Assembly: GCF_028641065.1 (NCBI RefSeq) | Contig: NW_026576313.1 | Coordinates: 1-64,000, forward strand | Length of the DNA stretch: 64,000 nucleotides | Origin: Leucoraja erinacea | Lineage: Eukaryota | Reading direction: 5' to 3' | In this document: positions 10,909-59,385 of the stretch, one piece after another | Layout of the letters: the number at the start of each line of letters is the position of its first letter | Position numbering within the stretch: the first letter of the stretch is position 1 | The notes under the pieces: model-generated | What the model was told of the DNA's origin: nothing | Databases searched by the model: none | The model's input: the letters and a program-made list of their open reading frames with translations, nothing else | Made by a program: the position numbers and the translations under genes

Positions 10909-10990
10909 GGAGAGAATGAATGGGTGATGTTTCGGGTGGAGTCTCTGAAGAAGGGTCTCGACCCGAAACGTCACCCATTCCTTCTCTCTC
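10909..10990 (+). ncRNA. Inverted-repeat Penelope-derived element with minimal hammerhead ribozyme core (10945-10972)
   Basis: CTGAAGA-A-GGGT(CTCG)ACCC-GAAA-CGTC; left arm GGGTGATGTTTCGGGT is complementary to the right arm. Confidence 0.65.
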
Positions 10991-11100
10991 TCCCTCTCTT
11001 TTTTTTTTTTTTTTTTTCTTTTTCAAAGACTTTATTCAACACATCAAATAATACAACAGATCAAGTCATACACAAAACGAACTTACATTATATCGTGTCA

Positions 11101-11850
11101 TTATAGTACACCATTACAATCATTATTCACAATACTCTCAACCCCACGCGGTGACCAGCGCCCACGGAATACCTCCAAAGTCCCCGTGAGCACCGCATGT
11201 TCCCTCTCCAGGGTCACACGTGCACGGACGTAGGCCCGAAAGAGGGGCAAGCAGCCGACTCTTGCGTGACCATCCATCGCCTGCTGCCTGGACCCGCGTA
11301 TGGCCATCTTGGCCAGGCCCAGGAGTAGACCGACAGGTAGGTCCCACCCGCCCGCTTGACTCTCCCCACACCCTGCCTTGTGTCCAAACACAAGAATCTT
11401 AGGACTAAAATGTAACCAGAACTTTAGGAACAACCCCTTCAGATATTGATACAGGGGCAGTAGCCTCTCACACTCCATATAAATGTGGAACACGGTCTCT
11501 TCCTCGCCACAAAAAATACAGGCAGCGGACGAGTCCGTGAACCGACTCAAAAGTTTGTTACACGCCACCGCTCTGTGCAGCACTCTCCACCCCAGGTCCC
11601 CCACGTAAAGGGGGACAACTCCCTTGTAGAGGGACCCCCACTGGGGACATTCCCCGCCTTCAGGGTCCGCACTACCAGGGGAGCTTACCCCACCCTCCTG
11701 CGTGCTAACACCCTCAGTAGGCCTCTGAAACGAGGGGACCTCCTCCGACCCAGAAGACACACTCCCAGGGGAGCCAAGATCAACACACGATGAGATCCCC
11801 CCCTCGGAGGGCCCCTTAGACAAAACGACATCCCCCCGCCCAGATGACAC
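11101..11850 (-). CDS. Tx1 ORF2 C-terminal zinc-binding region with a Ser/Gly-rich leader
   Basis: PQWGSLYK..GDLGWRVLH..CIFCGEEETVFHIYMEC..LLLGLAKMAI. Confidence 0.75.
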   Translation of the reverse strand: MSSGRGDVVLSKGPSEGGISSCVDLGSPGSVSSGSEEVPSFQRPTEGVSTQEGGVSSPGSADPEGGECPQWGSLYKGVVPLYVGDLGWRVLHRAVACNKLLSRFTDSSAACIFCGEEETVFHIYMECERLLPLYQYLKGLFLKFWLHFSPKILVFGHKAGCGESQAGGWDLPVGLLLGLAKMAIRGSRQQAMDGHARVGCLPLFRAYVRARVTLEREHAVLTGTLEVFRGRWSPRGVESIVNNDCNGVL

Positions 11851-13258
11851 AACTCCAGAGGAGGTCTACCCCCTCACCTGACCCTGTGGTACCCTCGAGA
11901 GATCCCTGAGGTGGATGCTCAACCTCCAACCCAGACGACGTCATTTCCTGACCTCCAACCACATCGGTGGTGGAAGATCTGGAAAAATCCACCCACCTAA
12001 CTTTGGACTCACGTCCCTGCTCTTCCTCACCAGGCCCAATCCTCCTTTTTGTCCCACTAGCATGCGGCGGTGTGGTAACCTCCATAAGGAGAGGGTCTTC
12101 CTCCTCCACACTACCCCCCGCCTCCTTACCACCCGCGCGTTTTGCCTTCCCTACCCCCTTCAGAGCCACCTCAGCTCCTTGCTGGGCCACGGCAGTTTCA
12201 CTCTGGACCCCCCTGGAGCTGACAGGCGCCCCTTGGGTGATCTCCGCACTCGGCAGTAGCACACCCGCTTGCTTTTGACTCGCTTGGGTGGTCTTTTTCA
12301 GCTTATTCTTCTTCTTCTTCTTCTGCTGCTCCCATTTCTGCTGCTCCCATTTCTCTCCCCCCTCACCCTGTGCCTCACCTTCAGCCACCCCCTCAGGTTC
12401 AGGATGTAGGGGGCGGGGGCCCTTGCTGCCCTGGGTCCCCAAGGTTGAAACTGCAGACCCAGAAGGGCTATCCCCGCTGCCCCGGATCACCGAGGCAGAG
12501 CCGGCAGCCCCTGCCAGGTCAGCGATTCCACCCCGCCCCTCCGAGACCTGACGAGCAACCCCTGATGGGCCAGCAGTGCATTCCTGGGCCGCTGCGCGAG
12601 AAGTTCTAGCACCGACCCCTTGATTAGGCCATTCCCTTCGGAGATGTCCATAACCACCGCACGCATGACACCATGCCTTTCCCCATCTCCAACGCACGGT
12701 TCTGGGGAGACCCCTACACTCCACCTCGAAACTCCCCTCATCACCTTCCCCCTCCCCCACCTTCACGAACACCCTCCTTTTGAAACTGAGAATCCCTTTT
12801 TCCTCCGGGTCCCCCCCAGGGTGCATGAGCCTAAAGCACTTAGACCACACCTCCCCAATCTGAGACAGGTGTGGAATGAGTGTCGCATCCGGAATACATG
12901 TGGGGCAACTCCGCAGGAGAACCGGTCTCACCCTGGACACCCATGGGTCCACCTGTATATGGACCCCCCCCACTGAAATCCCCCTCTCCACCGCTATGGC
13001 CACATCCTCCCGGTTCTTCAATATCATCTCAACCTTTCCCCTCTCGAGCTCGGAAGAGACAATAGCCCCCCTACCAAGAAGGGCATTCATAGCCTTCGTA
13101 ATTGATCCCCTGGACATCTGGGGCCCAGTTTGAACCGAGATACCAAAACTGTCCCAGTCCAAGTCAACATGAGGCTCATGTTCAGATGTCCTCGCTTCCG
13201 CTGCTGATGTCACTACTGTGTAGCTCCTCGCCTTCTGCCGCGCCCCCGCCATCGCCAT
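11816..13258 (-). CDS. Tx1-type ORF1 (nucleic-acid-binding protein, degenerate Zn knuckle)
   Basis: VLLRSCPTCIPDATL..SFKRRVFV resembles Tx1 ORF1; knuckle CHACGGYGHLRREW has last Cys replaced by Trp. Confidence 0.75.
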   Translation of the reverse strand: MAMAGARQKARSYTVVTSAAEARTSEHEPHVDLDWDSFGISVQTGPQMSRGSITKAMNALLGRGAIVSSELERGKVEMILKNREDVAIAVERGISVGGVHIQVDPWVSRVRPVLLRSCPTCIPDATLIPHLSQIGEVWSKCFRLMHPGGDPEEKGILSFKRRVFVKVGEGEGDEGSFEVECRGLPRTVRWRWGKAWCHACGGYGHLRREWPNQGVGARTSRAAAQECTAGPSGVARQVSEGRGGIADLAGAAGSASVIRGSGDSPSGSAVSTLGTQGSKGPRPLHPEPEGVAEGEAQGEGGEKWEQQKWEQQKKKKKNKLKKTTQASQKQAGVLLPSAEITQGAPVSSRGVQSETAVAQQGAEVALKGVGKAKRAGGKEAGGSVEEEDPLLMEVTTPPHASGTKRRIGPGEEEQGRESKVRWVDFSRSSTTDVVGGQEMTSSGLEVEHPPQGSLEGTTGSGEGVDLLWSCVIWAGGCRFV

Positions 13259-13901
13259 CCGGACAGAGGCACAAACCAGCTCCCGGCACTCCAGCAGCTC
13301 AGCAAATCAATTCCCAGGGACAGTCACAGTCCAAAGCAATCCTCAAAAAGCAAAGTCCTCCAGCTGAAAGTAGAAAATTCTCCAATTTCAATCCACTGCC
13401 GAGAAAACCTCGCCTTGTCTTGCCAAACGCAAAAGCACCTTCTTCACATTACGCCAGGCAGCCGCACCGTGCAAAATGACTTTAGGGCAGAGAAACAGTG
13501 CCAAAAACACGACAAAGACACCGAAAACTTCATACCCTCGCACTCCAGGCACTCTTGGCAGTCCGCCAATGACAGCCGCTCCCTCGACAATGTAGAGAAA
13601 TCTCAGGGCTTTTCACACTTGTGGAGGCATTTTTAACGCACAGGAAAGTTTGAACAGTCCAACAATAAGTTAAACTATGAAGCCCCTCTGCCTCTCTTCG
13701 ATCTCCTTCCACCNNNNNNNNNNNNNNNNNNNNNNNNNNNNNNNNNNNNNNNNNNNNNNNNNNNNNNNNNNNNNNNNNNNNNNNNNNNNNNNNNNNNNNN
13801 NNNNNNNNNNNNNNNNNNNNNNNNNNNNNNNNNNNNNNNNNNNNNNNNNNNNNNNNNNNNNNNNNNNNNNNNNNNNNNNNNNNNNNNNNNNNNNNNNNNN
13901 N

Positions 13902-16231
13902 GCTACCGGTTTACCTTTCTGTGTCAGGGCGGCCCCCAGTCCCGTGTCAGATGCATCACACTGAAGTGTCAACTCCTCTTCCTTGTTGTAGTACTGTAGA
14001 ACTGGTGCTTTAGCGATTTTGTCTTTCAGTCTTTGAAACGCCCCTTCTTGGATGTCCGTCCATTCCCACAGGTTCTCCTTGCGCGTGAGTTGTCTCAGAA
14101 TCTCAGAGTCATCTGAAAGGTGGTCATAGAACTTCGACAGATAGTTGACCATCCCAACTAATCTCTGTACCCCTTTCACATCCGTTGGCCTTGGCATCTC
14201 TCTGATTGCCCGTACTTTCTCCGGGTCAACCCTCAGTCCCTTGGCCGTGAGCAGATGACCTATGTAGGGTACCTCTTTTTGTCTGAGCTTGAATTTGTCC
14301 GCGTTCAGCTTGATGTTACGCTCTCTGCACCTGGTTAGAAAGCGTCTGACTTTCTCGTCGTGGTCCTTTCCTGCCTCCTCTTGTGTTGCTCCTTCCCCCG
14401 TGATTAACACATCGTCTGCTATGACGCAGACTCCTGGGAGGCCCTCCAGGGCATGCATGAGCTTTCTTTGGAACACTTCCGGTGCTGGGCTTTTTCCCAT
14501 GGGCATCCTTAGCCAACGGAAGCGACCAAATGGGGTGGCGAATGTGGTAAGGTAGCTCGACTCTTCCTCTAGTTTGACGTGCCAGAAGCCTTGCTTCACG
14601 TCGCAGACTGTGAATACTTTTGCCTTTGACATCTCCGGCAGGATGTCATCTATAGTTGGGAGTGGATAGTGACTTCTTTTTAGTGCCCGATTCAGCGGGT
14701 TTGGGTCTATACAGATCCTCAGCTTCCCATTATGTTTTCTCACTGCGACCATGCTACTGATCCAGTCAGTGCTGCGTTCCACTGGTGTGATTATCCCTCT
14801 TCTCTCTAGATCTTTGAGTTCCTCTTGTAGAGGTGTCACCATAGCTACAGGCACTCTGCGCTTTGGCAGTTTCACTGGCGGTACTCTGTCATCTATCTCT
14901 ATTCTATATTCACCCTCCATGCAGCCATCTCCAGTGAACACATCCTCAAACTCTTCATTTATTTTGTCCATGGTCACGGATTTGCCACTTTCTCCCTTTG
15001 TCACTGGGCTCGGCTCTGTCTTCACTATGTTGTCTATAGCCAGAACATTCTCGTACTGTACTTTTATCAACTTCATTGCCTCGCTGGCTTTTCTGCCCAG
15101 TAAAGGGATTCTGCTACTCTGGTCAACCACTTGAAACTCTAGTCTGTGCAGCTTGTTGTTTCTGGGGTTTCTGACCTTGACCTTACATGTACCCAGAGGA
15201 GTCAACTTGGTCTTGTTATACATCACTAGCACTTTTTCAGTGTGCTCTAACTGTGTGTCTGGGTTTAGTAGATCGATGGGGATGATATTACAGTTGGCCC
15301 CACAGTCTATCTGGAAGTCAACTAACTTTTCCCCTATCTTCATTCCTGCAAAGAGCTGCTGGCCCTGACTGTGGCTGTTTTTAACCTGGTTTACAGTTTC
15401 ATCCTCTCTATTTGCTTCAGTTATACAGTTGACATCCTCATAAGAGACACTGTCACTAGTCTGCTCTGTAACTGCATGCACTTTCTTAGTTTTCCCACTG
15501 CTCGCTTGTCTTGATCTGCACTGAACTGCAAAATGATTTTCCTTCCCACACCTCTTACACTTTTTCCCAAAAGCTGTGCATTTTTTCTTATTCCCCTCGT
15601 GTGTTCTACCACAAAACTTGCACAGTATCTCATTGTCTTTTTGTCTCTCTTCTGCCTGTTTCAGTGCATGTACCTCCTCCACTGTCTGTCCTTGCAGTGT
15701 TCTGCTATTCTTCCTTGACAGCTCTGTAGCTCTACAAATGTGCAGGGATGTCTCAAGAGTCAGCTTCTCTTCCATGAGTAACCTCTCCCTCAGTGCTGAG
15801 CTATTTGTACCACACACAACAAGTCGGTCTCTAATCAAAGAATCTCTAATGTCCCCAAAGTTGCAACTACTAGCAAGTATTTTCAAGTCTGTTACATAGC
15901 TGTCCACGTTTTCATCCAATCCTTGGTTCCTCATGAAGAATCGGTACCTTTCCACAGTCTCGTTTACCTTTGGGTTGCAGTACTCGTCCAACTGTATGAT
16001 CATTGAACTAACTGTGGTCCTCGCTGAAGGGCTAGCACTCGACAAAGTTGCCCAAAGTTCCCTGCCTTTTTCTCCGATGAGATAGTAGAATAGCTTGACT
16101 TTTGTGGTCTCTACGGCGTCTGGCATGGTAAGGTCTATGTACAGTGTGAACTCCTCCTTCCAACTTTTCCATGACTTCGCCAAGTTGTTGGAGTCCAAAA
16201 CCAAAGTTCCAGGGGGTCTTAGTCCTTCCAT
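13902..16231 (-). CDS. Gypsy/Ty3 (Mag-like) gag-protease-RT single frame, cut by gap
   Basis: CKRCGKENHFAVQC knuckle, IDCGA protease, RMPMG/IADD RT, LQCDAS RNase H start. Confidence 0.92.
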
Positions 16232-16287
16232 CGCTAGCTAATGTTTTTTTTTTTTTTTCTTGTTAATTCATAGACAATTTTCGACGT

Positions 16288-16302
16288 CCACCGCTGCCAC
16301 CA
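16288..16302 (-). promoter_or_regulatory. Primer binding site, tRNA-Leu type
   Basis: Minus strand TGGTGGCAGCGGTGG immediately after the LTR's CA. Confidence 0.85.
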
Positions 16303-16524
16303 TGTTTCATTATGTTCTGTCTCTATCTGGACGATACATAATGGACGATTAAAGCAGCTTTGCTTACTTGAACTTTATTGGCTTTGTGCAGTTCATCTCT
16401 CTGCCTCTGTATCCTTATCTGCAACTGGGCCACGAGCCCAGTGTCACCTCTAAAACAGTCCCCCGTACAACAGTAAAACAGTCCCCCGTACAACAGTACT
16501 TAAATAAACAATCCTATTGTTACA
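16303..16524 (-). mobile_element. Gypsy LTR (222 bp), with polypurine tract at about 16525-16543
   Basis: Minus strand TGTAACA...GAAACA; internal AATAAA; preceded by GAAAAAAGAAAAAGAAAGA and followed by the PBS. Confidence 0.85.
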
Positions 16525-16730
16525 TCTTTCTTTTTCTTTTTTCAAGTTAAGTCTCTTCCCCTTAGGTATTCTAGTGCAACAAACTTGTACCATATGCTCT
16601 GCTCATTTACAACAGATCTAACAACATAAGCAATAATAAATCAACAGTTCAAAACATCAGTTTTTTCCCACAAGTGCATAAACAACACATTTTCATTTCT
16701 TTTCTTTTCCTTTCATAGTCCATTCTCTAA

Positions 16731-18621
16731 TCACTGAGTATAGTCTGTCAGGTAGCGGGGTCTGATAACTTGTCGACCTGACCTGGTGACCGTGCCTTGG
16801 TTCTCTGCTGGGCCATCTGGCGGTATGGCCGCCTCAGTCACTGTTGGTGTGGGCGTGTTTTGTGTTGGTGTGAGCGTGGTGGGATTGTGTCTGAGGTGGC
16901 GACGATTTCGTCTCAGAACACCTCCTGACTCTAACTCCACCTCATACGATCTATGGCTCACCTGTTGGACCACTCTCGCTGGTCTCCAGCCCTTGTGTGT
17001 ATCACAGGGCTGTACTCTCACACTGTCCTCTCTTTTCAGAGTGTCCATGTCTTTTGCTGTGCGGTTGTAGTACTTTTCCTGTCTCTGTCTGTTGTATTTC
17101 AGTCCCTGTTCGTCGTGTGTTACCTCTGGCTTCAGCAGAGTGTCCTTTGTGGGAAGCAGGGTCCTGTCCTCCTGCTTAGGAGTCTCTGTGCCGGGCTTGT
17201 GTTGAGGCCCTGGCTCGGTGTGTTGCGATGATCCAGCATTCCCAAGTACGGATCATGTCTCGCTGCTGCAGCCTTCAGCATCAGGCGCTTGGCTGTCTTT
17301 ATCGCTGACTCCGCCTTCCCATTACTCTGCGGGTATCCCGGCGACGATGTACGGTGTTCAAAACCCCACTTCTGGCTGAAGTGCTGAAACTCTTGTGATG
17401 CATACTGCGGTCCGTTATCCGAGATAACAATGTCCGTAATCCCCTGTCGGGCAAAGTGTGCTTTGAGTTTTTTGATCACTGTGTTGCTCTTAGTGTCAGG
17501 TAGATAATCGACCTCCCAAAAGTTTGAATAATAATCCACTGTTATCAGATAGTCTTTATTGTGAAAGGAGAAAAGGTCCGTTCCTACTTTGGCCCAGGGT
17601 CTGCTGGCCATGTCATGTGGATGTAGTGTCTCTCTTTGTTGCCTTGGGTCCACTGACCTACATATGTCACATTTGGCGATGAAGGTCTTGATCTCCTCGT
17701 TCATTCCAAGCCAGTATACACACTCCCTCGCTCGCCTCAGACATCCTTCTACTCCCATGTGAGAGGAGTGGATCCTGTGAGTGATGTCCACCCTGAGTGC
17801 GTCAGGTATCACGGCTCTGTCCCCTCGGAACACTATGCCGTCCTGGAAACTCAGTTCATCTTGGAACGTGTGGTAGTGCCTGATGTCACTTGGTAGGTTT
17901 TTTTTTCTCGTGGGCCACCCTGACAGTATTCTGTTTACCACACTCTGTAACTTTGTGTCATCTTTTGTTGCAGCCCTGATGGCACTCAGCCTCTCTGCTG
18001 AAATGGGTAGGTAGCTGACCATGTTCACAGTCTCGATATCTGTCTCACTCTCTCCCATAGTGCTCTCTGGTAAGTATGCTCTACTCAGCGTGTCTGCAAG
18101 TAGCATATCCCTGCCTGGAACATAGGTCACACTAATATCATACTGCTGCAGTCTGAGTAGCATTCTCTGCAGTCTCTTAGGTGCACTAAGTAATGGCTTT
18201 CTGTGTATATTTTCTAGAGGCTTGTGGTCGCTTTGTACTGTGAACTCTCTACCATAAGTATACTGATGGAACTTTTCCATCCCAAACACTATGGCTAAGC
18301 ATTCTTTCTCTATTTGGGCATAGCCCCTTTCAGTTGGTGTGAGTGCCCTACTACCAAATGCTACCGGTTTACCTTTCTGTGTCAGGGCGGCCCCCAGTCC
18401 CGTGTCAGATGCATCACACTGAAGTGTCAACACCTCTTCCTTGTTGTAGTACTGTAGAACTGGTGCTTTAGCGATTTTGTCTTTCAGTCTTTGAAACGCC
18501 CCTTCTTGGATGTCCGTCCATTCCCACAGGTTCTCCTTGCCCGTGAGTTGTCTCAGAATCTCAGAGTCATCTGAAAGGTGGTCATAGAATTTCGACAGAT
18601 AGTTGACCATCCCAACTAATC
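16731..18621 (-). mobile_element. Gypsy pol 3' half (RT end, RNase H, integrase), frameshift near 17160
   Basis: YAQIEKE, DHKPL, HSSH..CDIC Zn domain, D(TDLF)-D(SDNGPQ)-E(GKAESA); C-terminal RRNRRHL..TRSGR in the next frame. Confidence 0.92.
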
Positions 18622-20632
18622 GGAAATTGGACACTTGGTTCGGAAAAAGAGGGAGATCTACAATAATTATAGGCAGCATGGAGTAAATGAGGTGCTTGAG
18701 GAGTATAAAAAATGTAAAAAGAATCTTAAGAAAGAAATTAGAAAAGCTAAAAGAAGATATGAGGTTGCTTTGGCAAGTAAGGTAAAAGTAAATCCGAAGG
18801 GTTTCTACCGCTATATTAATAGCAAAAGGATAACGAGGGATAAAATTGGTCCATTAGAGAGTCAGAGTGGACAACTATCTGCAGAGCCAAAAGAGATGGG
18901 GGAGATATTGAACAGTTTCTATTCTACGGTATTCGCCAAGGAGAAGGATATTGAATTATGTGAGGCAAGGGAAACAAGTAGAGTAGCTATGGAAACTATG
19001 AGGATCAAAGAAGAGGAAGTACTGACACTTTTGAGAAATATAAAAGTGGATAAGTCTCCAGGTCCGGACAGGATATTCCCCAGGACATTGAGGGGAGTTA
19101 GTGTAGAAATAGCAGGGGCTATGACAGAAATATTTCAAATGTCATTAGAAACGGGAATAGTGCCGGAGGATTGGCGTACTGCGCATGTTGCTCCATTGTT
19201 TAAAAAGGGGTCTAAGAGTAAACCTAGCAATTATAGACCTGTTAGTTTGACGTCAGTGGTGGAAAAATTAATGGAAAGAATACTTAGAGATAATATATAT
19301 AAGCATCTGGATAAACAGGGTCTGATTAGGAACAGTCAACATGGATTTGTGCCTGGAAGGTCATGTTTAACTAATCTTCTTGAATTTTTTGAAGATGTTA
19401 CTCGGGAAATTGATGAGCGTAAAGCAGTGGATGTTGTGTATATGGACTTCAGTAAGGCCTTTGACAAGGTTCCTCATGGAAGGTTGGTTAAGAAGGTTCA
19501 ATGGTTGGGTATTAATGGTGGAGTAGCAAGATGGATTCAACAGTGGCTGAATGGGAGATGCCAGAGAGTAATGGTGGATGGTTGTTTGTCAGGTTGGAGG
19601 CCAGTGACGAGTGGGGTGCCACAGGGATCTGTGTTGGGTCCACTGTTGTTTGTCATGTACATCAATGATCTGGATGATGGTGTGGTAAATTGGATTAGTA
19701 AGTATGCAGATGATACTAAGATAGGTGGGGTTGCGGGTAATGAAGTAGAGTTTCAAAGTCTACAGAGAGATTTATGCCAGTTGGAAGAGTGAGCTGAAAG
19801 ATGGCAGATGGAGTTTAATGCTGATAAGTGTGAGGTGCTACATCTTGGCAGGACAAATCAAAATAGGACGTACATGGTAAATGGTAGGGAATTGAAGAAT
19901 GTAGATGAACAGAGGGATCTGGGAATAACTGTGCAAAGTTCCCTGAAAGTGGAATCTCGTGTAGATAGGGTGGTAAAGAAAGCTTTTGGTGTGCTGGCCT
20001 TTATAAATCAGAGCATTGAGTATAGAAGTTGGGATGTAATGTTAAAATTGTACAAGGCATTGGTGAGGCCAATGCTGGAGTATGGTGTACAATTTTGGTC
20101 GCCTAATTATAGGAAGGATGTCAACAAAATAGAGAGAGTACAGAGGAGATTTACTAGAATATTGCCTGGGTTTCAGCAACTAAGTTACAGAGAAAGGTTG
20201 AACAAGTTAGGGCTTTATTCTTTGGAGCGCAGAAGGTTAACGGGGGACTTGATAGAGGTTTTTAAAATGATGAGAGGGATAGACATAGTTGACGTGGAAA
20301 AGCTTTTCCCACTGAGAGTAGGGAAGATTCAAACAAGGGGACATGACATGAGAATTAAGGGGCTGAAGTTTAGGGGTAACATGAGGGGGAACTTCGTTAC
20401 TCAGAGAGTGGTAGCTGTGTGGAATGAGCTTCCAATGAAGGTGGTGGAGGCGGGTTCGTTTTTATCATTTAAAAATAAATTGGATAGTTATATGGGAAGG
20501 GAATGGAGGGTTATGGTCTGAGCGCAGGTATATGGGACTAGGGGAGATTATGTGTTCGGCACGGGCTAGAAGGGTCGAGATGGCCTGTTTCCGTGCTGTA
20601 ATTGTTATATGGTTATATGGTTATATGGTTAT
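18622..20632 (+). mobile_element. Young 5'-truncated CR1 LINE with (TATATGGT)n tail; one in-frame stop at 19790-19792
   Basis: ORFs 18635..19792 and 19808..20521 with YRPVSL, QHGF, DFSKAFD, YADD. Confidence 0.95.
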
Positions 20633-21528
20633 CGTAAACAGTAAGCTATCTTGAATTATTCAACGACTTCACCACGCCACCTTGCCACTAAGCGGAAGTC
20701 ATGGAATGAGCGCCAATTTAGCAATTAAACAGTCCTGATCTAATAAAATGGTTATTCACGCTTTTACCAACCGAAAACTGTTGCAACGATTTAAAAAACA
20801 AGCCAGGGCAAACAATTTGGCAGCAGCCACTTGACAACCAATCAATTTTGTGAACACAAACTTTTTAAAAGGCGAGGCAAACAATTTGGCAGCAGCCACT
20901 TGACCACCATTCATGAGATGCCTCCTGACCCACAGAATTACTCCAGCATTATGTATCTATCTTCGTTGTAAACAAGGATCTGCTGTTACTTCCTACACAT
21001 AATAATCCGGTACATTATTAGAGATATATGAACATTGGTCCATCTTCAAGTACATTCCCAATCATTTTCTTCTGATAAACGGAACGGAAGTTAAACTGAC
21101 ACTCTACAAATTATGTGGTTATCCGCAAAAGCCAATGTTTGATTCCTGTGCACTGAAATGGAGACACAATAAAGTGCATATGCTGGTAGCTTGTGCAAAA
21201 ACCAATATCGGAGTGCTGGAGGAATTCAGCCATTCAGACAGCATTCTGTGGATGAAAATGAGCAGACGACGTTTCCGGTTGGGAACTTTATTGGAACGTT
21301 GAAAAGAAGCGACCTCATGGAAACCTCGCTTGTCAATTTCCGTCCTCTGATGCTGCCTGAACGGCTGGATTCATCCGGCAATGTTTCTTTTTTCTGCTTC
21401 TTTGCTTCTTAAGCCTCGCAATGTTTCGAAAAAAAGGCGATTGATCGCTTTATGCGGGGTATTTCTCGTAAAAATAAGTTGATTAAATTGAGATAGAGTG
21501 TATAATATATATATTTTCTGTGTTACAG

Positions 21529-22427
21529 CTGACTTGGTGGCAATCATCATTCTCTGTCGGGGGAAATGTGAGCTATCCAAATGCATCACCCGTTACCTGG
21601 TGGCCATGGCAGCTGCTGACCTCATGGTCCTGATAGTCGAAATGATCCTGTATGAAATAAAGAATTGTTACTTCCCAATCTCATTCTTCAATGACACTCC
21701 CGTTTGCAGTCTAAACCTGACCCTTCTTTTTATTTCCCTTGATTGTTCCGTCTGGTTAACCGTTGCTTTCGCCGTTGATCGATGTATATCTATTTACCAA
21801 CTACGATTCCGTGCCAAGTATTGTACTGAAAAAACGGCATCTATTGTGATAGCTGTGATATGCTTTTTCAGCGTTTTTCAAAATGTGCGTACCTATTTTA
21901 CATATGAACCGCGAGACATAATCGACAACGTGTCATGGTTTTGTGCCGTAAAACCATTCTGTTTTATCTCACCTGCATGTATTGCATTCCTTTGGATTGA
22001 CACACTCCTAAACCCAATTGGGCCAATTGTGTTTATCATAGTTCTTAATTCGCTTACCATAAGGCATATTTTAGTGGCCAACAGAGTAAGACAAGGGGCT
22101 TCGACAGGCGAATAAATCAAATGGTGAAACGTATCCTGAGATTGACAATCGAAGGAAATCTATAGTTTTGTTGCTTGCAATAACTGGGAGCTTTGTACAC
22201 CTGTGGATGGTAATATTTGTTTATTTTCTATCTATACCATTTACAGACAACCAAACATTGTCGACACATTTTAATAATCCTTTCACTATTGCTAAAAAAT
22301 CTGGTTATATGTTAAGGAGTGCTTGCACGAAAACCTTCATTTATGTTGCATCACAAGCTAAATCTGCGAAGAATTAAAATGTATTGTTAGATATCCTGTA
22401 TCTCTCTTGTGTAGTTTACTGAAATAA
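21529..22427 (+). pseudogene. Exon 2 of GPR139-like receptor, frameshifts near 22097 and 22365
   Basis: TTACAG| acceptor; DLVAIIILCRGKCELSKCITRYLVAMAAADL, DCSVWLTVAFAVDRC, NRRKSIVLLLAITGSF, CTKTFIY, EELK..YP. Confidence 0.88.
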
Positions 22428-22485
22428 ATTCAACTGTTTTACAAACCGAAAGGGTAGCACATTATTGAACGATGCATTGCTTTCT

Positions 22486-25459: not shown

Positions 25460-28400
25460 TATAGCATCTCTGGATAGAAGGAATGGGTGAATTTTGGGGC
25501 GAGACACTTCTTCAGATTGAGAGCCAGGGGAGGGGGAGACACAGATATAAGGATGGGTAAAGTGTTTAATAACGAGATATCAAACGAGGCGAGGATCAAG
25601 GAAAATGTAGAATAGATCACTGTTCTTTAAGGGAAAGTGACAGCAAAGCAAACATAGATAACATTTCGTTCACTACTAATTTCCATCCTGCACTCAAATT
25701 CACTTGGACCATCTGCGACATGTCTCAACCGTTTATTGATCTCGCCGTCTCTATGCGAGGTTATAGAGTATCACAATTTCACAAGTTATAGGAGTAGAAT
25801 TAGACCGTTCGGTCCATCGATTCTACTCCGCCATTCAATTACGCATGATCTCCGCATCCTAATCCCATGTTCCTGCCTTCAACCAAACCCCTTGACACCC
25901 GTTCTAATCAATAACTTGTCTATCTCCCCTTAAAAATATCCACTGTCTAGGCCACCGTGATAATTCGTTCCACAGATAAATTACCCTCTGAGAAAAGAAG
26001 TTAATCCTCACCTCCTTTCTAAAAGAGCGCATTTTAATTTCGTGGGCAAAGACCTCTGGTCCTATACTCTCCCACCAGTAAAAACTTCAATTCTATCTAT
26101 GCCTTTCAATATTCTGTAAGCGTCAAACGGTCACCAGATGCTAACCCACTGATTACTGGAATCATTCTTGTAAAACTCCTCTGGATCCTCTCCAGAGTTG
26201 CACATCCTTCCTCAGATATGGTGCCGAAATTTGCTCACAGTATTCCAAATGCAGCCTGACCAGTACCATATCTAACCAAAGCATTACATCTCAGTTTTTG
26301 TATTCCAACCCTCTTGATATAAATGCTAACATTGAATTTACCTTCCTTACTGTCGATTCGACTTGAAGATTAACTATTTTGCAGTCCTGCCCCAGCACCC
26401 CAAGTCCCTTTGCACCTCGGATTTCTGAATTATCTTTCCATTTAGAAAATAATCGACCCCTTTATTCTTTTTACCAAAATGCATGACTCCGTATTTTGCT
26501 ATAAACAATCTCATCTGCCACTTCTCTGCCCACACTCAGAACCTGTCCAAGTCATTCTGCACAGTCCTTGCTTCCTCTTCACTGCCTGCCCTTCCACCTA
26601 TCTTAGCATCATGTGCAAATTTGGCCGCAAAGCATTCATAACCTTATCCAAATCATTAATATCCCACGTGAAGAGCAGCGGCCCCAGCGCCGACCTTGCG
26701 GACCTTCACTAGTCACTGACAGCCAACCGAAAAATATCTATTTTATTGCAACTCTTTGCCTTCAGTTGTCCAGCTAATCCTCTAGCCATGCTAGTATCTT
26801 CCCTTTGATGCCATGGACTTTTATCTTCCCGAGCAGCCTTACATTACCGAAGGCCTTCTGAAAATCTAGGTAAACAACATCTGCAGCCTCCCTTGTGTTT
26901 GTCCTACTATTAAATTCCCCAACGAACTCCAGCAAGTTCGTTAGGCAAGATATTTCCTTCACAAAACCATGCTGACTTTGGCCTATTTTATCGTCAACTC
27001 CTAGGTACTATGTAACCTTGGCCTTTATAATGACACTAAAATATTACTGACCATCAAAGTAAAGCGAACATGCCTATAGAGTCCACGCTTCTGCTTTGCT
27101 CCCTTCTAGTAAAGCGGGCTGTTTGTCACAATGTTCAACATTTCAGGCAGCACTCCTAGCTCTAGTGATTCTTGAAATATCATAACTAATGCCTCCAACG
27201 TCTCTGAGGCCGCCTCCTTCAGAATCCAGGGGTTCAGTCCAGCCGGTCCAGGTGACTTATCCGCACGCAGACCTTTCAATTTCCTAGAACCGTCTGCTTA
27301 ATAATCGTCACTCCACTAACCTGCACGCCTTGGCCCATTAGGATCACCTGCTGGTGTCTTCCACTGTCAAGACTGATGCAAAATGGTTATTCAATTCCTT
27401 CTGCTATTTCATGATTTCGCGTTATCACTTCTCCTGCATCATTCTCTTGATGTCCACTCTTTCCTCTTTTTTACTCTTTTTATATCCGCAGAAACTCTTG
27501 CTATCCTATGTTATATTATTGTCCAGCTTACATTCGGACTTCAACTGACACATATTATAAACCTACAGACTCCCACGGCAATCCTTCTTCCCACCCTGCC
27601 TCTTGCAAAGACTCTATCCCTTACCCCAATTCCTCCATCTACGCCATCTGAGCCCAAGCCAACCATGCTAGGACATCTGAGTCACCCCATCGGCCGTCGC
27701 GTACGGCACATAGTCTTCTTCACTTTCGCCACCTCCACCGCTAGCCAAATCTTCCCATCCCCACCCCTTTGCACTTTCCGCAGATACCGTTCCCTCACAA
27801 CTCCCTGATTAACTCGTCCCTTCCCACCCAAACCATACCCACCGAAGATATTTCCCTTGCAAACCCAAGAGATGTAACACCCGCCCCTATACGTCATCCA
27901 TCGACTCGGTACGAGGACCCCGACCGTCTTTTAGGGTGAGGCAGAGGTTCACCTTTATCCCCACCAGCCTCTTCGTCTGTGTCTGCCATTCTATGTGTGG
28001 TTACGCATATATGGGCGAGAGAAAACGCAGGCTCGCCGATCGTCTCGCCGAACACCTCCGCTTAGGTCGCCTAAACCTATCTGATCTGCCGGTTGCAAAA
28101 CACTTTAAAGGGCTTGCTGGTATCATTGACTGACGTATGTCACCGAAAAATACGCCGCGTGACGACTTATGACGCGGCGGTGACGCGGCGTGATGACGTG
28201 ACGCGGCAGTGACGGAATGATGCCCAGTGCAAATTCGAGGAACAGCCCCTCCTATTTCGCATGGACAGTTTACACACCAAACGGTGTGAATATTGACTGC
28301 TCTAACTTCGTAACCCTTGCTTTCGCCCCCCCTCCCCCACCCCCGCCCCCCCCCCCCCCTCCCCTTCCCTCTCCGACCACTATGACTGCCCGGATTAAAT

Positions 28401-28680
28401 TCTATCTCTGTTTGCTTTGTTGTCCCATTCTCCTAGCTACTAATGATGTATTCTACATTTTCCGTGAACTACTTCTCTTTTGATGTGTCTTTTTCACACA
28501 CTTTACCTTTCCTTATCTCTGTGTCTCCCTCTCCCTTGACTCTCAGCCTGAAGGAGGGTCTCGACCGAAACCGCATCCGTTCCTTCTATGCAGAAATGCT
28601 GCATGACCTTCTGAGTTTCTCCAGCATTTTTGTGCCTATCTTTGGTGTAAACCAGCATCTGTAGTTTCTTCCCACAAATT
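25460..28680 (+). mobile_element. Decayed Penelope-like element with inverted terminal copy, interrupted by CR1
   Basis: FTTNFHPALKFTWTI..PFIDL (about 25670-25750); YKPTDSH (about 27556); GIY-YIG-like YMGERKRRLADRLAEHL (27936..28133); 25460-25620 is a diverged reverse complement of 28440-28605. Confidence 0.85.
25775..27540 (-). mobile_element. Old decayed CR1 inserted in the Penelope element
   Basis: SCLTNLLEF, VYLDFQKAF remnants; CR1 3' UTR near 25790. Confidence 0.85.
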
Positions 28681-32104: not shown

Positions 32105-32335
32105 GTATGAAGAACTGCAGATGCTGGATAAAAAAAAACTAAGATAGACATCAAATGCTGGAGTAATTCAGCGTGAAGGGCAGCATCTAGGGCGAGAAGG
32201 AATGGGTGACGTTTCGGGTCGATCTCCATCTTCAGACAACAGTCTGAAGAAGGGTCTCGATCCGAAACATGACCTAGTCCTTCTTTCCAGACACGCTGCC
32301 TGCCCCACTGAGTTACTCCAGCATTGTGTGTTATT
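32105..32335. mobile_element. Palindromic Penelope-derived short element (two inverted hammerhead-like cores)
   Basis: GACGTTTCGGGTC..TCTTCAGAC-AACA-GTCTGAAGAAGGGTCTCGATCCGAAAC. Confidence 0.75.
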
Positions 32336-32954
32336 TTTTATCTATGTTATTCCATTTCCTTGTGCACTATCTACAAAATAGGCGCGATTTACAGAGACCA
32401 ATAAACCACGTATTTGGGAATTGGCAGGAAACCAATCGAACCCAGGTGTCTTGCGCTGTGACGTAACACTTCTACCAGCAGCATAACTACGCCGCAAAAT
32501 TTCGCCCTGATCTTAGTCAGTGGGAAATGACCTCATTGCGGCCACCCCATCGCATCTGTAACTAATTATATAGATTGTTCAGCTTCCCCATTCGAAAAGA
32601 AAAGAGCGAAAAATCTGCCCAGTTAATACTTCCTGAAACCAAGACACTGCGGCTGCTAGCAACATTGCTGTAAATTACCACGGGTTCTACCAAATGTTTT
32701 CCTCAGCTTCGTGACCACAACTGTGGACTGCGATTTACTGCGTTTAAAAAAGGGTTCCGACTGGAAAGTCGACCCTACCAAATTCTTCAGATATGCTGTC
32801 TGACGTGCTGAATTACTCCAGCACCTTATGGTTCGTTGCTAATCAGCATCTGTAGGTCATGGTGTTAACGTGCAGTACGTTACTTACCGTCCAACTAGTT
32901 TGATATCGTTTCTAAGGAGATAGCAAGCCAGAAAATTGCTACGCTAGTTAAATA

Positions 32955-36359: not shown

Positions 36360-36455
36360 ATCATCAGTCTGAAGAACGGTTTCGACCCGAAACGTCACTC
36401 ATTCCTTTACTCCAGAGATGCTGCCTGTCCCGCTGATTAACTACAGCATTTTGTT
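36360..36455 (+). ncRNA. Penelope-derived repeat with hammerhead-like core (36369-36396)
   Basis: AGT-CTGAAGA-ACGGTTTCGACCC-GAAACGTC-ACT. Confidence 0.55.
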
Positions 36456-36596
36456 TCTTCCATTTCTCGTTCCGGTATAAAAATAGAAAAGTTGACGCGT
36501 TTTGATGTGAGCCTGCTGTCCGCAATCTTTGAGGCAGGTGTTCTTCCAATCCAGATGTTCCAACGATGACTGTTGTGGGAGGCAGGCAACATTCAC

Positions 36597-40990: not shown

Positions 40991-43673
40991 ATCGCAATTT
41001 ATTGAAAATGTCTTTCTTATTCTTTCACAGTCGCTCATGGTTTTATAAGAGGATATATTGCAGAAGGTATTGCAGTACGCAACAGAATTTTCAGCTGTAG
41101 TTTGAGAGATTCATTGACCCCGCCGGATATAAGTTTCTATCGTGCCAATAAGAAATTATTTTATTATGTTGTCTTATCAGTTGGCATAAACTTCCGTACA
41201 TTTGTTTGACAGTGTACCACCATGTTCGGATCAGAGACGATGAGACTTCATCTGATCCTCGTTCGAGAACTGGTCCTAAAGGGTTCCCTTTTCGTTGGAT
41301 AGCAGGCTTTATTTGTGCAAGTGGGTGCAGTTGCCGGAAAACAAGTTGAAGGATGCTGAAATATAGATAGTACGGAGGTACCTCTAAATTTAGATGTAAG
41401 TGGCATTGCAGCAGATTGACAGGGGTATAATAATTACGATTTCTGTCCAGGTATTGGGTAAAATTACACTTTTCCCCATGTACATCTATGAGTTGACCAT
41501 GCTGACTCTAGTATATAATATAGTATGTTTCTTTTCCATAATCAAACAAAAGAAAATCACATTTCTAATTGAAGTGCGCGACTATAGCAGGATGTTGAGC
41601 AGAGCACAAAGTGTCGAAGGGACGCAGCGGGCAGGCAGCTCCTGGGACAAGCGACTTTACGGATAGGGACCCTTCTTCAGCCTGGAGAACATTCCACAGT
41701 TTGAATAAGGAATCTTGCATCAGTCTGAGGTGGAGGCAGTGTAGAGGAAAGACGTCAGAACTAACAGGCGAGATTGGATATAAAATAAGACGTGTCATTC
41801 TGATTTATCTATTGCCTAAATCCATTCAATCCGGATCTTCAGTCTGAAGAGAGGGCAACGTGATAGGATGAAGATAATTATTGTCTAAGACAAGTTTCGG
41901 CAGAACCTTGAGCAAAACATTAACCGCTGGAGGAATTCAGCCGGCCAGGCAAGGGCGTAGCAGTGAGCGTTTCCGCTCGCAACATTTACTGAATGAGACG
42001 CGTCATGTTATTTATTGCGTCTACAGTGCATGTCATACATTTTACAGCCAATCCTGCGTTGTTTGGATGGCCTATTAAATGGCCGGTGTCATGTCTCTGG
42101 AAGGTCGTTAATTTGTCCCTCTGTTTACGAGAAACTGAGAAGCTAGTGCTACTTAGGGGGGGGGGGGGGGGGGGGGGAGATAGAGAGTGATGCAATGTGA
42201 TATGAATATGCATATAAATCGGCACTTTACTTGATTGTGAGAAACGTTTGATAGTCAGAACAGTTAAGTCTACTTCTGTCCCCACCGATGCTGCCTGACC
42301 TGCAAATTGCATGATGCATATGGTGTTCTTCACTTCATTTTTCAATTTTTGCTTTCTGGATTCTACCATTTTGATTATCTATCAGAATCCAGGGATTACC
42401 TATTTAAGCAGATCATTATCGGCTTCCCTGTTCTACCCCCCACCCAGCTCCCCCCCTCCCCCTCCCCCAGGGACTGCGTAAACAATAATATCCAATGTCA
42501 AAATATGTCCATCATGTCCTTTAATATGTTAGTTAATAGGAAGGTCATGAATTCGAAAATAAGACCTAAATGATTGTAAGGTGCAGGATCAGTTCATTCC
42601 AAAGAAGAAGAAAGATTCCAAGGGGCGACCGTGGCTGACAAGGGAGGTCAGGGACCGTGTACAAATAAAAGAGAAGAAGTACAACGTAGCAAAGATGAGC
42701 GGGCAGGAAGACGATTGGGTAATGTTTAAAGAGCAACAGAAGATAACCAAAAAGTCAATACGGGGGAGAAAAGATGAGGTACGAAGGTAAGCTAGCCAAG
42801 AATATAAAGCAGGATAGTAAAAGCTTCTTCAGGTATGTGATGTGGAAAAAAATAGTTAAGACCAAAGTTGGACCCTTGAGACTGAAAAAGGTGAATTTGT
42901 TAAGGGGAACAAGGAAATTGCAGATGTGTTGAACAGGTACTTTGGATCTGTCTTCACTGAGGAGGATACAAGGAATCTTCCTGATATAGCCGTGAGGATC
43001 TGCGGTGGCGGAGGAACTGTAAGGAAATCCACATTAGGCAGGAAATGGTGTTGGGTAGACTAATGGGACAGAAGGCTGATAAATCCACAGGGCCTGATGG
43101 TCGGCATCTCAGGGTACTTAACGAAGTGACTCTAGAAATCGTGGATGCCTTGGTGATCATTTTCCAATGTTCTATAGATTCAGGACCAGTTCGTGTGAAA
43201 TGGAGGGTAGCTAATGTTATCCCAATTTTTAAGAAAAGCGGGAGAGCGAAAACAGGGAATTATAGACTAGTTAGCCTGACATCGGTGGTGAGGAAGATGT
43301 TGGAGGCAATCATAAAAGTTGAAATAGCGGCACATTTGGATAGCAGTTACAGAATCGGTCCAAGTTAGCATGGATTTATGAAGGGGAAATCATGTTTGAA
43401 TAATCTTCTGGAATTTTTTGAGGATGTAACCAGGAAAATGGACAAGGGAGAGCTAGTGGATGTAGTGTACCTGGACTTTCAGAAATCATCTAATAAGGTC
43501 CCACATAGGAGATTAGTGGGTAAAATTAAGGTACATGGTTTAGGGAGTAGAGTGCTGACATGGATAGAAAATTGGTAGGCAGACTGGAAATACATAGTCC
43601 CTTAACGGGTCCCTTTCAGAATGGCAGGCGGTGACTAGTGGGGTACCGCAAGGCTCGGTGCTAGAACCGCAGC

Positions 43674-51196: not shown

Positions 51197-51199
51197 AAT

Positions 51200-56600: not shown

Positions 56601-57631
56601 TATTCGTATTTGCACCATCACCGTAAATGCAGGGACGTTCATTCCTGGGCAAAATACCTCAGGGCACGGGTAAACGCGGGGAGATGTTACCCAGATAGCG
56701 ATTACACAATTGTTCGGTAGACCTAGATAGGCCTTAGCCTTGTATCATTTCTTGTGTTTGTTCAGTAAGGTATCACATGAGCAAAATTAAGCTGCGTTTA
56801 TCTAAAAGCTTTGGATACGAAGGGAATCAACACACATATTTTGTCGGAAGCTGTTGCGGCCTTCTATGACCCTCTCCTTTGTCTTTTCCTACAGCAATAC
56901 ACAACACAATGCAATGCCAAAATACAGGCAAAGTTGAACAAACGGAACACTTTCAACGAATGTCCAACCGTTGCTTTCAGTCTGTACGGACATTAAACAT
57001 TTCCATCTCCTTCACCTTCTCTGGGAACCAGATCCCTTCCGGGTCACCTTCATGGGTTTCCATAAAGAACTCTTCAACAGGACTGAATATGGACACAACA
57101 TACTGGAGTAACTCAGCCTGCAGGCAGCATCTCTGGAGAGTAGGAATGGGTGACTTTTCGGGTCGAGACCCTTCTTCTTCAACAGGGCTGACTAACTTTC
57201 AATGGGTGTGCGATCTCGGTACCGACGTAATTTACCGAAGATCTCTGTTGCTCGGGTTGAGAATCAATCTAACAACCCGCTTGCGTGCATAGAATCTTGA
57301 AAAATATTTTTGCAATGGTGTATCGTTGGTGATGGATTTTCACAGGGTACCTTTGACGGATTAATTGATGGGACTTCGGTGTCCTTGTGATGGGCTGTTG
57401 CTAGTATTATTTAGTTTCGTATATATTAGGATAAACTCTCACTTTGGGGTGGAAAAGACAAGTCTTTACCAGTACCACGATGACAACATTAATCGTTTTT
57501 AATTATTGGGAATAGAAATGCCACTGAGTTAAGAATGAATTCAATTTATAATATTACTGAATATGAACAGGATAGTGATGGAGATGAGGTCCAGACTGTG
57601 GAAAGAACAATCAGACGGAGATATTTCAACA

Positions 57632-58195
57632 TTTTAGTTTCAGTTTAGTTTATTGTCACATGTACCAATACAGAGTACAGCGTTTGTTGCGTGCTAACCA
57701 GTCAACAGAAAGACAAAACATGATTACAATCGATGCATGTACACTGTATATACGTGGTAAGGAAATGAGGTTTAGTGCAAGGTAAAGCCAGCAAAGTCCA
57801 ATCAAGGATAGTCGAGGGTCACCAAAGAGATGAGTAATAGTTTTTGCACTGCTCTCTGGTTGTGATAGGATAACAGCAGGGAAGAAACTGGCTCTAAATC
57901 TGGTGGTGTGCATTGTCATACTCCTATATATTTTGCCTAATGGGAGAGCGGAGAAGAGGTAGTGGCCAGGGTGTGACTCGCCCTTGATTATGCTGCTAAC
58001 CTTGTGGAGGCAGCGTGAGGTATAAATGAAGTCAATAAAGCGGGGTTGGTTTGTTTGATGGTCTGGGCTATGTCCACAATTTGCTACAATTTCTTACCGT
58101 CTTGAATGGAGCTGTTCCCAAACCAAGCTGTGATGCATCCTGATGAAATGCTTTCTATGGTGCATCTGTAGAAGTTCATGAGAGTTAGTGGACAT
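57632..58195 (-). mobile_element. Rex1/Babar-like LINE 3' fragment
   Basis: TTRFRASFFPAVI; (CTAAA)n tail. Confidence 0.75.
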
Positions 58196-58221
58196 TAACT
58201 TACTTTAATCTTTTTTTGTAG

Positions 58222-59070
58222 CAAATTTGCTGGCAATTGTCATTTTCTCCCGCGGAAATTGCGGACTCTCGAAATGCATCACTCGTTACCCGTTGGGCAT
58301 GGCGGTGGGCGATTTCAGGGTTCTGATAACTGAAGCATTCCTCTATGAGATAGTCAACGGCTACTTTCCATTCTCGATATTCTACCACACCACATTCTGC
58401 AGATGGTACATTGTGGCCCACTTTATTTCCATCGACTGCTCGGTTTGGCTACCCTTTGATCGGTTCAGTCCTTGCGGACCAAGTATTGCCCTGAAAATAC
58501 TGCAGCTGTGGTGATAGTTCCTTAAGCGTTATGCAGAATGCTCCATTCTACTTTATATACGAACCGCGATAAATAATTGACAATATAGAGTGGTCCTGCT
58601 GTGTAAAGTCAACCTTTTACACTTTATCCATCTGGGTAGTATTTTTGTGGTTGGAATCCGTGTTAACAACTATTTTCCATTTTGTGTTAATTTTGCTGCT
58701 CAACCTATTAACTATCAGGTACATTATCCTGGCAAATAGAGTGAGGACTCCGGCGAAACAAACAAGCTGAGAAGCACACTGATGCCGAGATGGAGAACCG
58801 AAGGAAATCAATAATTTTGCTTCTCGCTATTTCTGGCAGCTTTATTTTGTTGTGGATGGTTATTTTTATATATTACATATATGTGCAATTTACTGACACG
58901 CAGTTTTTGGAAGCAAGTTATAACGACCCTTTCACCATAATGGAACAAACTGCGGTGTTTGAGTTGTTGCACAAACAGTATATTAATGCAGTGTTCCAGA
59001 AGAAATTTAGATAGGAGTTAAGAATATGGTTAAAGCCCCTTTCATTCTCATTGCTAATTCATTCAATTAG
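58222..59070 (+). pseudogene. Exon 2 of second GPR139-like receptor, multiple deletions and stops
   Basis: TTTTGTAG| acceptor; NLLAIVIFSRGNCGLSKCITRY, DCSVWL, MENRRKSIILLLAISGSFILLWM; exon 1 not identified. Confidence 0.9.
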
Positions 59071-59385
59071 GTTCGACACAAAATCTGGAATAACTCAGTG
59101 GGCCAGGCACTATATCTGGGGAGACTGAGTGGGTAACGTTTTGGGTCGAGACCTTTCTTTGACTGGCTAAATAAACTGTATTACTGTATCGAAAATTTAC
59201 ATGAATATGTTTCTGCTGGAGTAATTCAGCTGGATAAGCAGGATCACTGGATAAAATGAATGTGTCTCGACCTGAATGGTCACCCATTCCTTCTATCCAG
59301 CCATGCTGCCTGTCCCGCTGAGTTACTCCAGGATTTTGTGTCTATCTGCGGTGTAAACAAGCATCTGCAGTTCTTTCACACACAT
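59070..59385. mobile_element. Cluster of decayed Penelope-derived short repeats (others at about 20915-21000, 21165-21400, 41600-41850, 57090-57180)
   Basis: GCTGCCTGTCCCGCTGAGTTACTCCAG..GCATCTGCAGTT signature in both orientations. Confidence 0.65.

What the first reader, a model, noticed from the sequence alone, without database searches (positions are those of the whole stretch)
10909..59385. Dispersed short Penelope-derived elements carrying a minimal hammerhead ribozyme core, often as inverted pairs
Seen: the motif CTGAAGA-A-GGGT(CTCG)ACCC-GAAA-CGTC is intact at 10945-10972. Variants lie at about 81-106, 28548-28572, 32244-32271 and 36369-36396 on +, and at about 25487-25515, 32208-32235, 57152-57180 and 59134-59162 on -. 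Several form tail-to-tail palindromes (10909-10990, 32105-32335), and one has a 15-bp target duplication (58-171). Established: CUGANGA/GAAA/NUH is the hammerhead core, and Penelope-like elements carry minimal hammerheads with a tiny palindromic helix III that can act as dimers. Inference: this is a high-copy, non-coding, ribozyme-bearing retroelement family mobilised by the Penelope machinery. It has an extra A before helix II and only a 2-3 bp helix I, so activity is uncertain.
Basis: partly seen in the sequence, partly recalled or inferred. Interest (0 to 1): 0.7.

Follow-up and report, generated by a model that had tools for sequence, protein, structure and literature searches.

The report
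Penelope leader stubs with minimal hammerhead
These short repeats are the ribozyme-motif end of a known kind of jumping gene (Penelope-like), present in an estimated million mostly decayed copies, and they are likely by-products made when the element's enzyme copies the uncut front of its own RNA rather than a separate ribozyme-driven family.

Summary
The motif is real and matches the published minimal hammerhead of Penelope-like elements (PLEs), including the 'extra A'. It is the pseudo-LTR of Neptune-type PLEs: it follows the RT/GIY-YIG ORF and, in five partial tandems, precedes the next ORF. A 1.2-Mb sample gives about 1.0 million arms genome-wide. Corrections: pairs are head-to-head, not tail-to-tail (96 of 155 vs 9 of 139 close pairs); one window copy passes a hammerhead descriptor, with 1-bp helix I; 25463-28680 is one insertion with RT/endonuclease remnants. 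Copies decay neutrally: no helix II covariation (odds ratio 1.07); 21 of 167 intact. Short and long copies share subtypes and ages. 3' ends are bimodal; 175 of 236 copies reaching the motif's front stop there, 2 of 407 at the cut site; 55 of 68 pairs have exactly one tail. Likely mechanism: run-off cDNAs of uncut RNA from two internal start sites. Cleavage untested. This scan noted the same before on other DNA.

The parts
10944..10988 (+). pLTR stub, columns 4-48; the only window copy with intact core, helix II and ACGU; helix I 1 bp; 3' part cut off by a pyrimidine tract
10908..10941 (-). inverted (head-to-head) arm, columns 17-50, no CUGA box
57..85 (-). inverted 'tail' (about columns 107-135 of the leader) at the 5' side of the 84-171 stub
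84..171 (+). stub from helix II onward (CUGA box missing), 93% identical to the young gamma subtype; flanked by 15-bp TSD 42-56/172-186 inside a LINE
20915..20997 (+). stub, columns 51-133, no hammerhead
21214..21292 (-). old diverged stub
25463..25666 (-). inverted arm (3' UTR + decayed hammerhead) at the 5' end of the compound insertion 25463-28680
25669..28368 (+). remnants of the PLE ORF (RT thumb, linker, GIY-YIG), split by a later 1.8-kb insertion at about 25768-27536
28369..28680 (+). 3' UTR, decayed hammerhead (28548) and tail of the same insertion; possible 11-bp TSD (1 mismatch) at both outer ends
32105..32237 (-). head-to-head arm with tail (columns 3-132); helix II damaged
32240..32337 (+). 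head-to-head arm without tail (columns 1-99); cleavage triplet lost; 9-bp TSD-like repeat outside the pair
32747..32858 (+). old diverged stub
36365..36458 (+). solo stub, columns 1-94, G10.1 changed; about 11-bp TSD
41601..41684 (-). old diverged stub
57082..57177 (-). solo stub, columns 7-103 (CUGA box missing); about 15-bp TSD
59075..59165 (-). decayed arm without tail
59214..59261 (-). short inverted arm, columns 37-84
59264..59387 (+). arm with tail, columns 15-128+, no CUGA box

Best explanation
These repeats are the pseudo-LTR end of Neptune-type Penelope-like retrotransposons, and the short copies are likely dead by-products made when the element's reverse transcriptase starts at one of two internal sites about 98 and 131 bases into its uncut RNA and runs off the RNA's front end, just before the hammerhead motif. 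Shown: link to RT + CxxC linker + GIY-YIG ORFs; position of the same sequence as 5' leader of partial tandems (ATG at column 169); two 3' end classes; 5' pile-up at columns -6 to +6 and none at the cut site; head-to-head pairs with one tailed and one tail-less arm; neutral decay of copies. Inferred: the pile-up marks the transcription start (TCAGT, initiator-like by recalled consensus); the endonuclease nicks both strands 9-16 bp apart, each nick primes a cDNA at one of the two sites, and the two cDNAs are joined head to head. Inferred: in source elements the motif is a weak dimer- or protein-dependent ribozyme kept by selection, not needed to make these inserts.
For: Motif 106 nt after the stop of a 658-aa frame with RVT_1 and GIY-YIG hits; six distinct 3' UTR families carry the same motif (five with visible endonuclease coding upstream); five partial tandems pLTR-ORF-pLTR. 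3' ends cluster at columns 92-100 and 127-133, the PLE 'tail' and the two RT start sites of anole PAc (PMC11167929). 175 of 236 copies that reach column 6 end at -6..+6; per-base stop rate 0.05-0.16 vs 0.003-0.010 upstream; mode column 2; 2 of 407 start at column 33. 68 of 181 non-inverted, non-pyrimidine-flanked copies start at -1..+6. 55 of 68 informative pairs have one tail, 2 have two (12.8 expected, p=1e-4). Short-solo, short-inverted and long copies share subtypes at equal identity (alpha 0.89-0.91, beta 0.93-0.94, gamma 0.96). TSDs abut 20 of 107 solo stubs vs 3 of 107 in a shifted control. PAc uses unprocessed RNA and cuts both strands.
Against: No direct evidence for a transcription start: RNA reads of a related organism show no place where many molecules begin or end (swamped by read-through copies). 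The peak is 8 or more bases wide, not one base. An extra cap-derived G was not seen (2 of 12 starts at column 2 preceded by G). Pyrimidine tract + CAG also reads as a 3' splice site, as in D. virilis; 7 of 60 solo stubs had their best repeat more than 6 nt upstream (score 10 or more; control 0). Copies of subfamilies without an upstream reference can be miscalled as ending at column 1 (14 of 73 ending at -6..+1 have pyrimidine-rich flanks). 11 of 68 pairs had no tail on either arm. None of the five tandems checked has an unbroken ATG-to-endonuclease frame. Pfam hits are below curated cut-offs.
Confidence: 0.6

Rival explanations
1. Ordinary 5'-truncated 3' ends: RT starts at the 3' pLTR of a long RNA and falls off at the front of the motif because of a block there (protein on the pyrimidine tract, a splice junction, or microhomology at the CAG-T-CTG quasi-palindrome), not because the RNA begins there.
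For: The 3' and 5' pLTR are the same sequence, so origin cannot be read from the stub. 51 of 407 copies run 25 nt or more upstream. U-rich + AG just before helix I is a real intron end in D. virilis. Four perfect palindromes centre on column 4.
Against: Pile-up persists in non-inverted copies (68 of 181); no shared first-exon sequence found upstream of 126 such copies; no splice joint into column 4 among the joints listed (15 of 203 and 15 of 78 shown); PAc needs RNA beyond the tail to work, which a 3' pLTR copy lacks unless in tandem.
Confidence: 0.25
2. One reading: a self-propagating non-autonomous, SINE-like family in which solo stubs are transcribed from their own internal promoter and re-copied in trans.
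For: About 85% of copies carry no UTR or coding sequence; they have TSDs; D. virilis Penelope has an internal promoter (PMC2377424 passages); tandem non-autonomous PLE derivatives (retrozymes) exist in vertebrates.
Against: Same three subtypes and same ages in short and long copies; no compensatory excess among copies; tandem neighbours are a minority (33 of 163 within 50 nt). No tree of copies was built, so a hidden short-only clade is not excluded.
Confidence: 0.12
3. The motif is no longer a ribozyme even in source elements and is kept as promoter or protein-binding sequence.
For: Helix I is 2 bp (38 of 55 descriptor hits); predicted folds do not give the hammerhead, and in the leader the purine run pairs with a downstream CCUUC instead; downstream sequence is almost as conserved between subfamilies (0.92) as the motif (0.95); no copies from cut RNA.
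Against: All catalytic bases are fixed across seven subfamily consensuses whose upstream 40 nt are only 0.66 identical, and the four subfamily changes in the motif keep the fold (loop, two A-U to G-U, GUC to GUU); the PAc motif cleaves only with its protein.
Confidence: 0.2

Closest known systems
Minimal type I hammerheads in pLTRs of metazoan PLEs (Cervera and De la Pena 2014, PMC4209133; read: parts 1-2 of 4 of the text, parts 1-2 of 3 of supplement file 2; file 1 not searchable)
   Same: CUGANGAH, G10.1-C11.1, unpaired base 9/10.1, palindromic ACGU in place of helix III, U-rich 5' flank, place in pLTR, mostly solo copies 'probably related to truncated PLEs', opposite-strand pairs.
   Different: Helix I is 2 bp (paper: 4-5 bp typical, 2 bp in Drosophila); no shark or skate entry in the searched supplement; copy number is far higher (paper: 4,000-9,000 motifs in coelacanth and frog); little sequence variety among source families.
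EN+ PLEs of the Neptune type (Craig et al. 2021, PMC8557442, passages; Arkhipova et al. 2013, PMC3846280, passages)
   Same: RT, C-x4-C-x2-C linker, C-terminal GIY-YIG, partial tandems, heavy 5' truncation, adjacent inverted copy head to head, 30-40-bp tail on one end, 8-10-bp-range TSDs.
   Different: Long proline-rich N-terminal region; extreme share of leader-only stubs with a sharp 5' pile-up, not described in the passages read. Clade placement rests on the linker motif, no tree was built.
PAc (Poseidon) of the green anole (Frangieh et al. 2024, PMC11167929; read: parts 1-2 of 4)
   Same: Two internal RT start sites that define the tail; both strands cut and extended; uncut RNA used as template; no reads ending at the cleavage site.
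   Different: In PAc the ORF starts inside the hammerhead; here the long ORF starts at column 169. PAc is Poseidon clade. The biochemistry was not tested for this element.
Non-LTR retrozymes (Li, Clavereau, Pollet 2026, bioRxiv 10.64898/2026.07.22.740005; read: parts 1-3 of 5)
   Same: Type I hammerhead sequence derived from pLTRs, non-coding, present in one chondrichthyan genome in that survey.
   Different: Retrozymes are defined as tandem repeats with a hammerhead in each unit; these copies are solo or head-to-head and end at PLE tail sites.

Membership tests
PLE minimal hammerhead | Core CUGANGA / GAAA / NUH with helix II closed by G10.1-C11.1 | tested here: met
   55 descriptor hits in 1.2 Mb vs 0-1 in 5 shuffles; matches consensus
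PLE minimal hammerhead | Unpaired base between 9 and 10.1; palindromic 15.1-16.1 segment | tested here: met
   53 of 55 and 54 of 55 hits
PLE minimal hammerhead | Helix I | tested here: inconclusive
   2 bp in 38 of 55 hits, 3 bp in 3; third pair is A-C in 118 of 130 copies; shorter than the 4-5 bp typical
PLE minimal hammerhead | Covariation in helices | tested here: inconclusive
   None among genomic copies (143x262/193x181 = 1.07), as expected for dead copies; between subfamilies only one-sided A-U to G-U changes
PLE minimal hammerhead | Self-cleavage after NUH as dimer or with protein | not testable with these tools
   No read pile-up at the site in four raw RNA runs of a related organism; not a sensitive test
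EN+ PLE, Neptune type | RT followed by C-terminal GIY-YIG in one frame | tested here: met
   658- and 755-aa frames; RVT_1 E 8e-7, GIY-YIG E 1e-3, both under curated cut-off
EN+ PLE, Neptune type | CX2-5CxxC linker | tested here: met
   Seen in the translation; definition
EN+ PLE, Neptune type | Partial tandems with pLTRs; inverted 5' copy; optional 30-40-nt tail; TSD | tested here: met
EN+ PLE, Neptune type | Phylogenetic placement of RT in the Neptune clade | not tested
   No reference PLE sequences held; no tree built
Non-LTR retrozyme | Tandem arrays with a hammerhead in each unit | tested here: not met
   33 of 163 same-strand neighbours within 50 nt; 5 of 272 motif-bearing copies follow another copy
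Non-LTR retrozyme | Abundant circular RNA | tested here: inconclusive
   Only low-count 33-34-nt go-back joints (up to 51 reads per run) among thousands of reads, which genomic duplications could give
Independent non-autonomous SINE-like family | Own lineage distinct from the autonomous partner | tested here: not met
   Same subtypes and identities in short and long copies; coarse three-type test, no tree

The most novel reading that the evidence does not exclude
About a million insertions are a genomic record of a PLE 'strong-stop' step: the RNA starts at the first base of hammerhead helix I, and one RNP primes two cDNAs from two fixed internal sites on the two nicked DNA strands, which run off the capped end and join head to head; this would fix the start site and explain tails, inverted pLTRs and why the ribozyme must stay uncut during copying.
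Probability: 0.45. Interest if true: 0.55.

Novelty: new member of a known kind. Interest (0 to 1): 0.27.

Why it matters
As a ribozyme or element type it is known since 2014. Its value is as a very large natural data set on PLE transposition, which is poorly understood: the two 3' ends, the 5' pile-up and the one-tail rule give exact, testable predictions for transcription start, priming and joining. It also shows that an Alu-scale repeat (about 4% of sampled DNA) can likely arise without an independent SINE lineage. The dead copies are unlikely to cut host RNA; head-to-head pairs would rather form double-stranded hairpins in introns and UTRs (inference).

Tried and rejected
Rfam scan: no hammerhead hit, 3 chance matches. 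First descriptor script returned nothing through a loop-size bug; fixed. Cleaved RNA as template: rejected, 2 of 407 starts at column 33. Extra cap G (lead from e1-8159767): not seen in a small sample. Spliced templates: no shared upstream exon, no listed splice joint, not excluded. Covariation among copies: none. Thermodynamic folding did not give the hammerhead fold for monomer or homodimer. No run on record as RNA holds the stretch in the index (no RNA holder listed); raw RNA runs added by species label were laid instead; they come from an organism whose indexed runs hold 0.56-0.67 of the words, so possibly a relative. PDB sequence search found nothing. Lunse et al. 2016 is not held; only a review's passages on it were read (PMC6765202). 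One search was a wrong-frame translation, redone. Cluster F7 (3 copies beside LINE tails) was dropped from the references. Literature searches showed no paper on this family or on a 5' pile-up at the hammerhead; only listings were seen for papers not named above, subscription papers and Repbase/Dfam were not searchable, and bioRxiv supplements (one chondrichthyan retrozyme table) are closed.
Full report
Columns below count from the C of CAGT just before the motif: C3 of the hammerhead is column 5, the predicted cut lies between columns 32 and 33.

Observation. The motif is at 10945-10972 and the other cited places hold related copies. A profile built from 30 exact-motif loci finds 17 hits in the window. 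The exact 29-mer occurs 6,141 + 6,118 times in the 2.19-Gb genome, reversed control 0. In 120 evenly spaced 10-kb stretches of large contigs the profile finds 567 hits, 0 in the reversed sample: about 1.04 million arms (bootstrap 0.89-1.19 million), 4.2% of sampled bases (small contigs not sampled). The duplication around 58-171 is real, with one mismatch, and an uninterrupted homolog of the host LINE has one copy. The pairs are head-to-head: 96 of 155 such neighbours lie within 50 nt, against 9 of 139 tail-to-tail and 33 of 163 tandem. Only the 10945 copy passes a minimal-hammerhead descriptor in the window (0 in 50 shuffles), with a 1-bp helix I; the other cited copies have lost the CUGA box or carry core, helix or cleavage-triplet changes. 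Rfam has no hit.

What it is. Four of the first 30 loci (L005, L009, L019, L024) show the C-terminus of a GIY-YIG-like frame about 100 nt upstream of the motif, and a fifth (L021) further up. A protein search gave 150 scored matches out of 120,430 candidates. L061 holds a 658-aa frame with RVT_1 (E 8e-7) and GIY-YIG (E 1e-3), both below curated cut-offs, and a C-x4-C-x2-C linker, with the motif 106 nt after the stop. A search with the RT N-terminal part lists open frames up to 1,085 aa. Five of 20 fetched regions are partial tandems in which the motif also stands about 1.9 kb before the RT region; the long frame starts at column 169, though in each of the five the ATG frame ends after 95-468 aa. 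Seven upstream clusters (six distinct UTRs; F5 shows no clear coding sequence) all end in the same motif. In the window, 25669-25767 and 27537-28368 match consecutive parts of the full-length element, so the 25487 and 28548 copies are the two ends of one insertion. This is the anatomy given for EN+ PLEs (PMC8557442 and PMC3846280, passages); the linker points to Neptune, untested by tree. That the host is a cartilaginous fish is my recollection from the repeat and gene content, not a call result.

The ribozyme motif. It matches the published consensus for PLE minimal hammerheads, including the unpaired base between 9 and 10.1 and the palindromic core (PMC4209133). The sample has 55 descriptor hits (0-1 in 5 shuffles; 2 of the 55 look unrelated to the family): 53 with the extra base, helix I of 2 bp in 38 and 3 bp in 3. 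Between six subfamily consensuses, identity is 0.66 in the 40 nt upstream, 0.95 in columns 2-35 and 0.92 in columns 36-95; the four changes inside the motif keep the fold. Genomic copies decay: 21 of 167 spanning copies, found with a downstream-only profile, are fully intact; G12 is changed in 36% of alpha copies, like other CpG guanines (23-30%); non-CpG core divergence is 0.069 vs 0.089 downstream (p=0.036, open to alignment bias). Compensatory double changes in helix II number 143 and 262, non-compensatory 193 and 181, an odds ratio of 1.07 (95% about 0.80-1.43, my arithmetic). Folding predicts helix II only, and in the longer leader a competing helix between the purine run and a downstream CCUUC. 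Cleavage is untested. Published minimal motifs cleave weakly as dimers and the anole motif only with its protein.

How the stubs arise. 3' ends of 466 copies cluster at columns 92-100 and 127-133, the PLE tail, which PMC11167929 ties to two internal RT start sites. 5' ends of 407 copies: 175 of the 236 that reach column 6 end between -6 and +6 (0.05-0.16 per base, against 0.003-0.010 upstream and 0.004-0.02 at columns 7-46); the mode is column 2; 2 start at column 33. Without inverted, tandem or pyrimidine-flanked copies, 68 of 181 still start at -1..+6. Of 85 close head-to-head pairs, 68 could be classed: 55 have one tail, 11 none, 2 two (12.8 expected; p=1e-4). Short and long copies share three subtypes at equal identity (this count adds L001-L030 to the random sample). 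TSDs of 9-16 bp abut 20 of 107 solo stubs (control 3 of 107); a wider scan of 60 found 8 abutting and 7 distant repeats at score 10 or more (control 0 and 0). I infer run-off copying of uncut RNA that starts at an initiator-like TCAGT (consensus recalled; an Inr-like TCACT in a rotifer pLTR is), with two cDNAs primed on opposite strands for the pairs.

Against this. Raw RNA reads from three runs plus one contig set and four runs cover the element, the motif far more than the ORF 5' region, but show no place where many molecules begin or end; these reads come mostly from read-through copies and perhaps a related species, so they neither support nor refute a start or a cut. The pyrimidine tract plus CAG could be a splice acceptor as in D. 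virilis; no splice joint was among those listed (15 of 203, 15 of 78 shown). No extra G was seen. A hidden short-only lineage is not excluded.

Earlier notes. After I had formed this reading (note), look-ups showed 755 notes with these words in at least 47 genomes and 119 in this genome, several with the same strong-stop idea. They are not independent evidence.

Verdict. Interest 0.27.

Noticed in passing
window 5894-10707 (-): DIRS-type retrotransposon: tyrosine recombinase frame 6396-7448, RT frame 7367-9445, a 418-aa frame 9304-10557, and split inverted repeats at 5894-6230 and 10645-10707; a further end fragment at 59603-59749.
   Followed up: partly
window 10764-10840 and 21492-22112 (+): A short ATG-started hydrophobic exon followed by a GT donor, and a 7tm_1 exon (E 1e-8); likely one GPCR gene, which would put the 10909-10990 pair about 75 nt into its first intron. 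A paralogous exon lies near 58227-58900.
   Followed up: partly
window 13902-18853: LTR-element remnant: RNase H/integrase frame 17135-18853 (-) and a 262-bp direct repeat, 98.9% identical, at 13902-14163 and 18360-18621.
   Followed up: no
window 18823-20630 and 22518-25117: Two 96-98% identical LINE RT copies, one interrupted by an older LINE piece.
   Followed up: no
L246:3682-3736 (RNA lays): Recurrent go-back joints of 33-34 nt in the motif region in RNA reads, the same length as the tail; genomic duplication or small circles not told apart.
   Followed up: no
leader columns 54 onward, L246:3733-3777: A short upstream ATG frame lies in the leader before the long ORF in the subtypes seen (read); may be chance.
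   Followed up: no
cluster F7: Three stubs sit directly after the repeat tail of a CR1-like LINE; possible target preference.
   Followed up: no
L246:3812-5240: The full-length element has a 442-aa N-terminal frame with no Pfam hit and a long proline-rich, internally repeated stretch before the RT.
   Followed up: no
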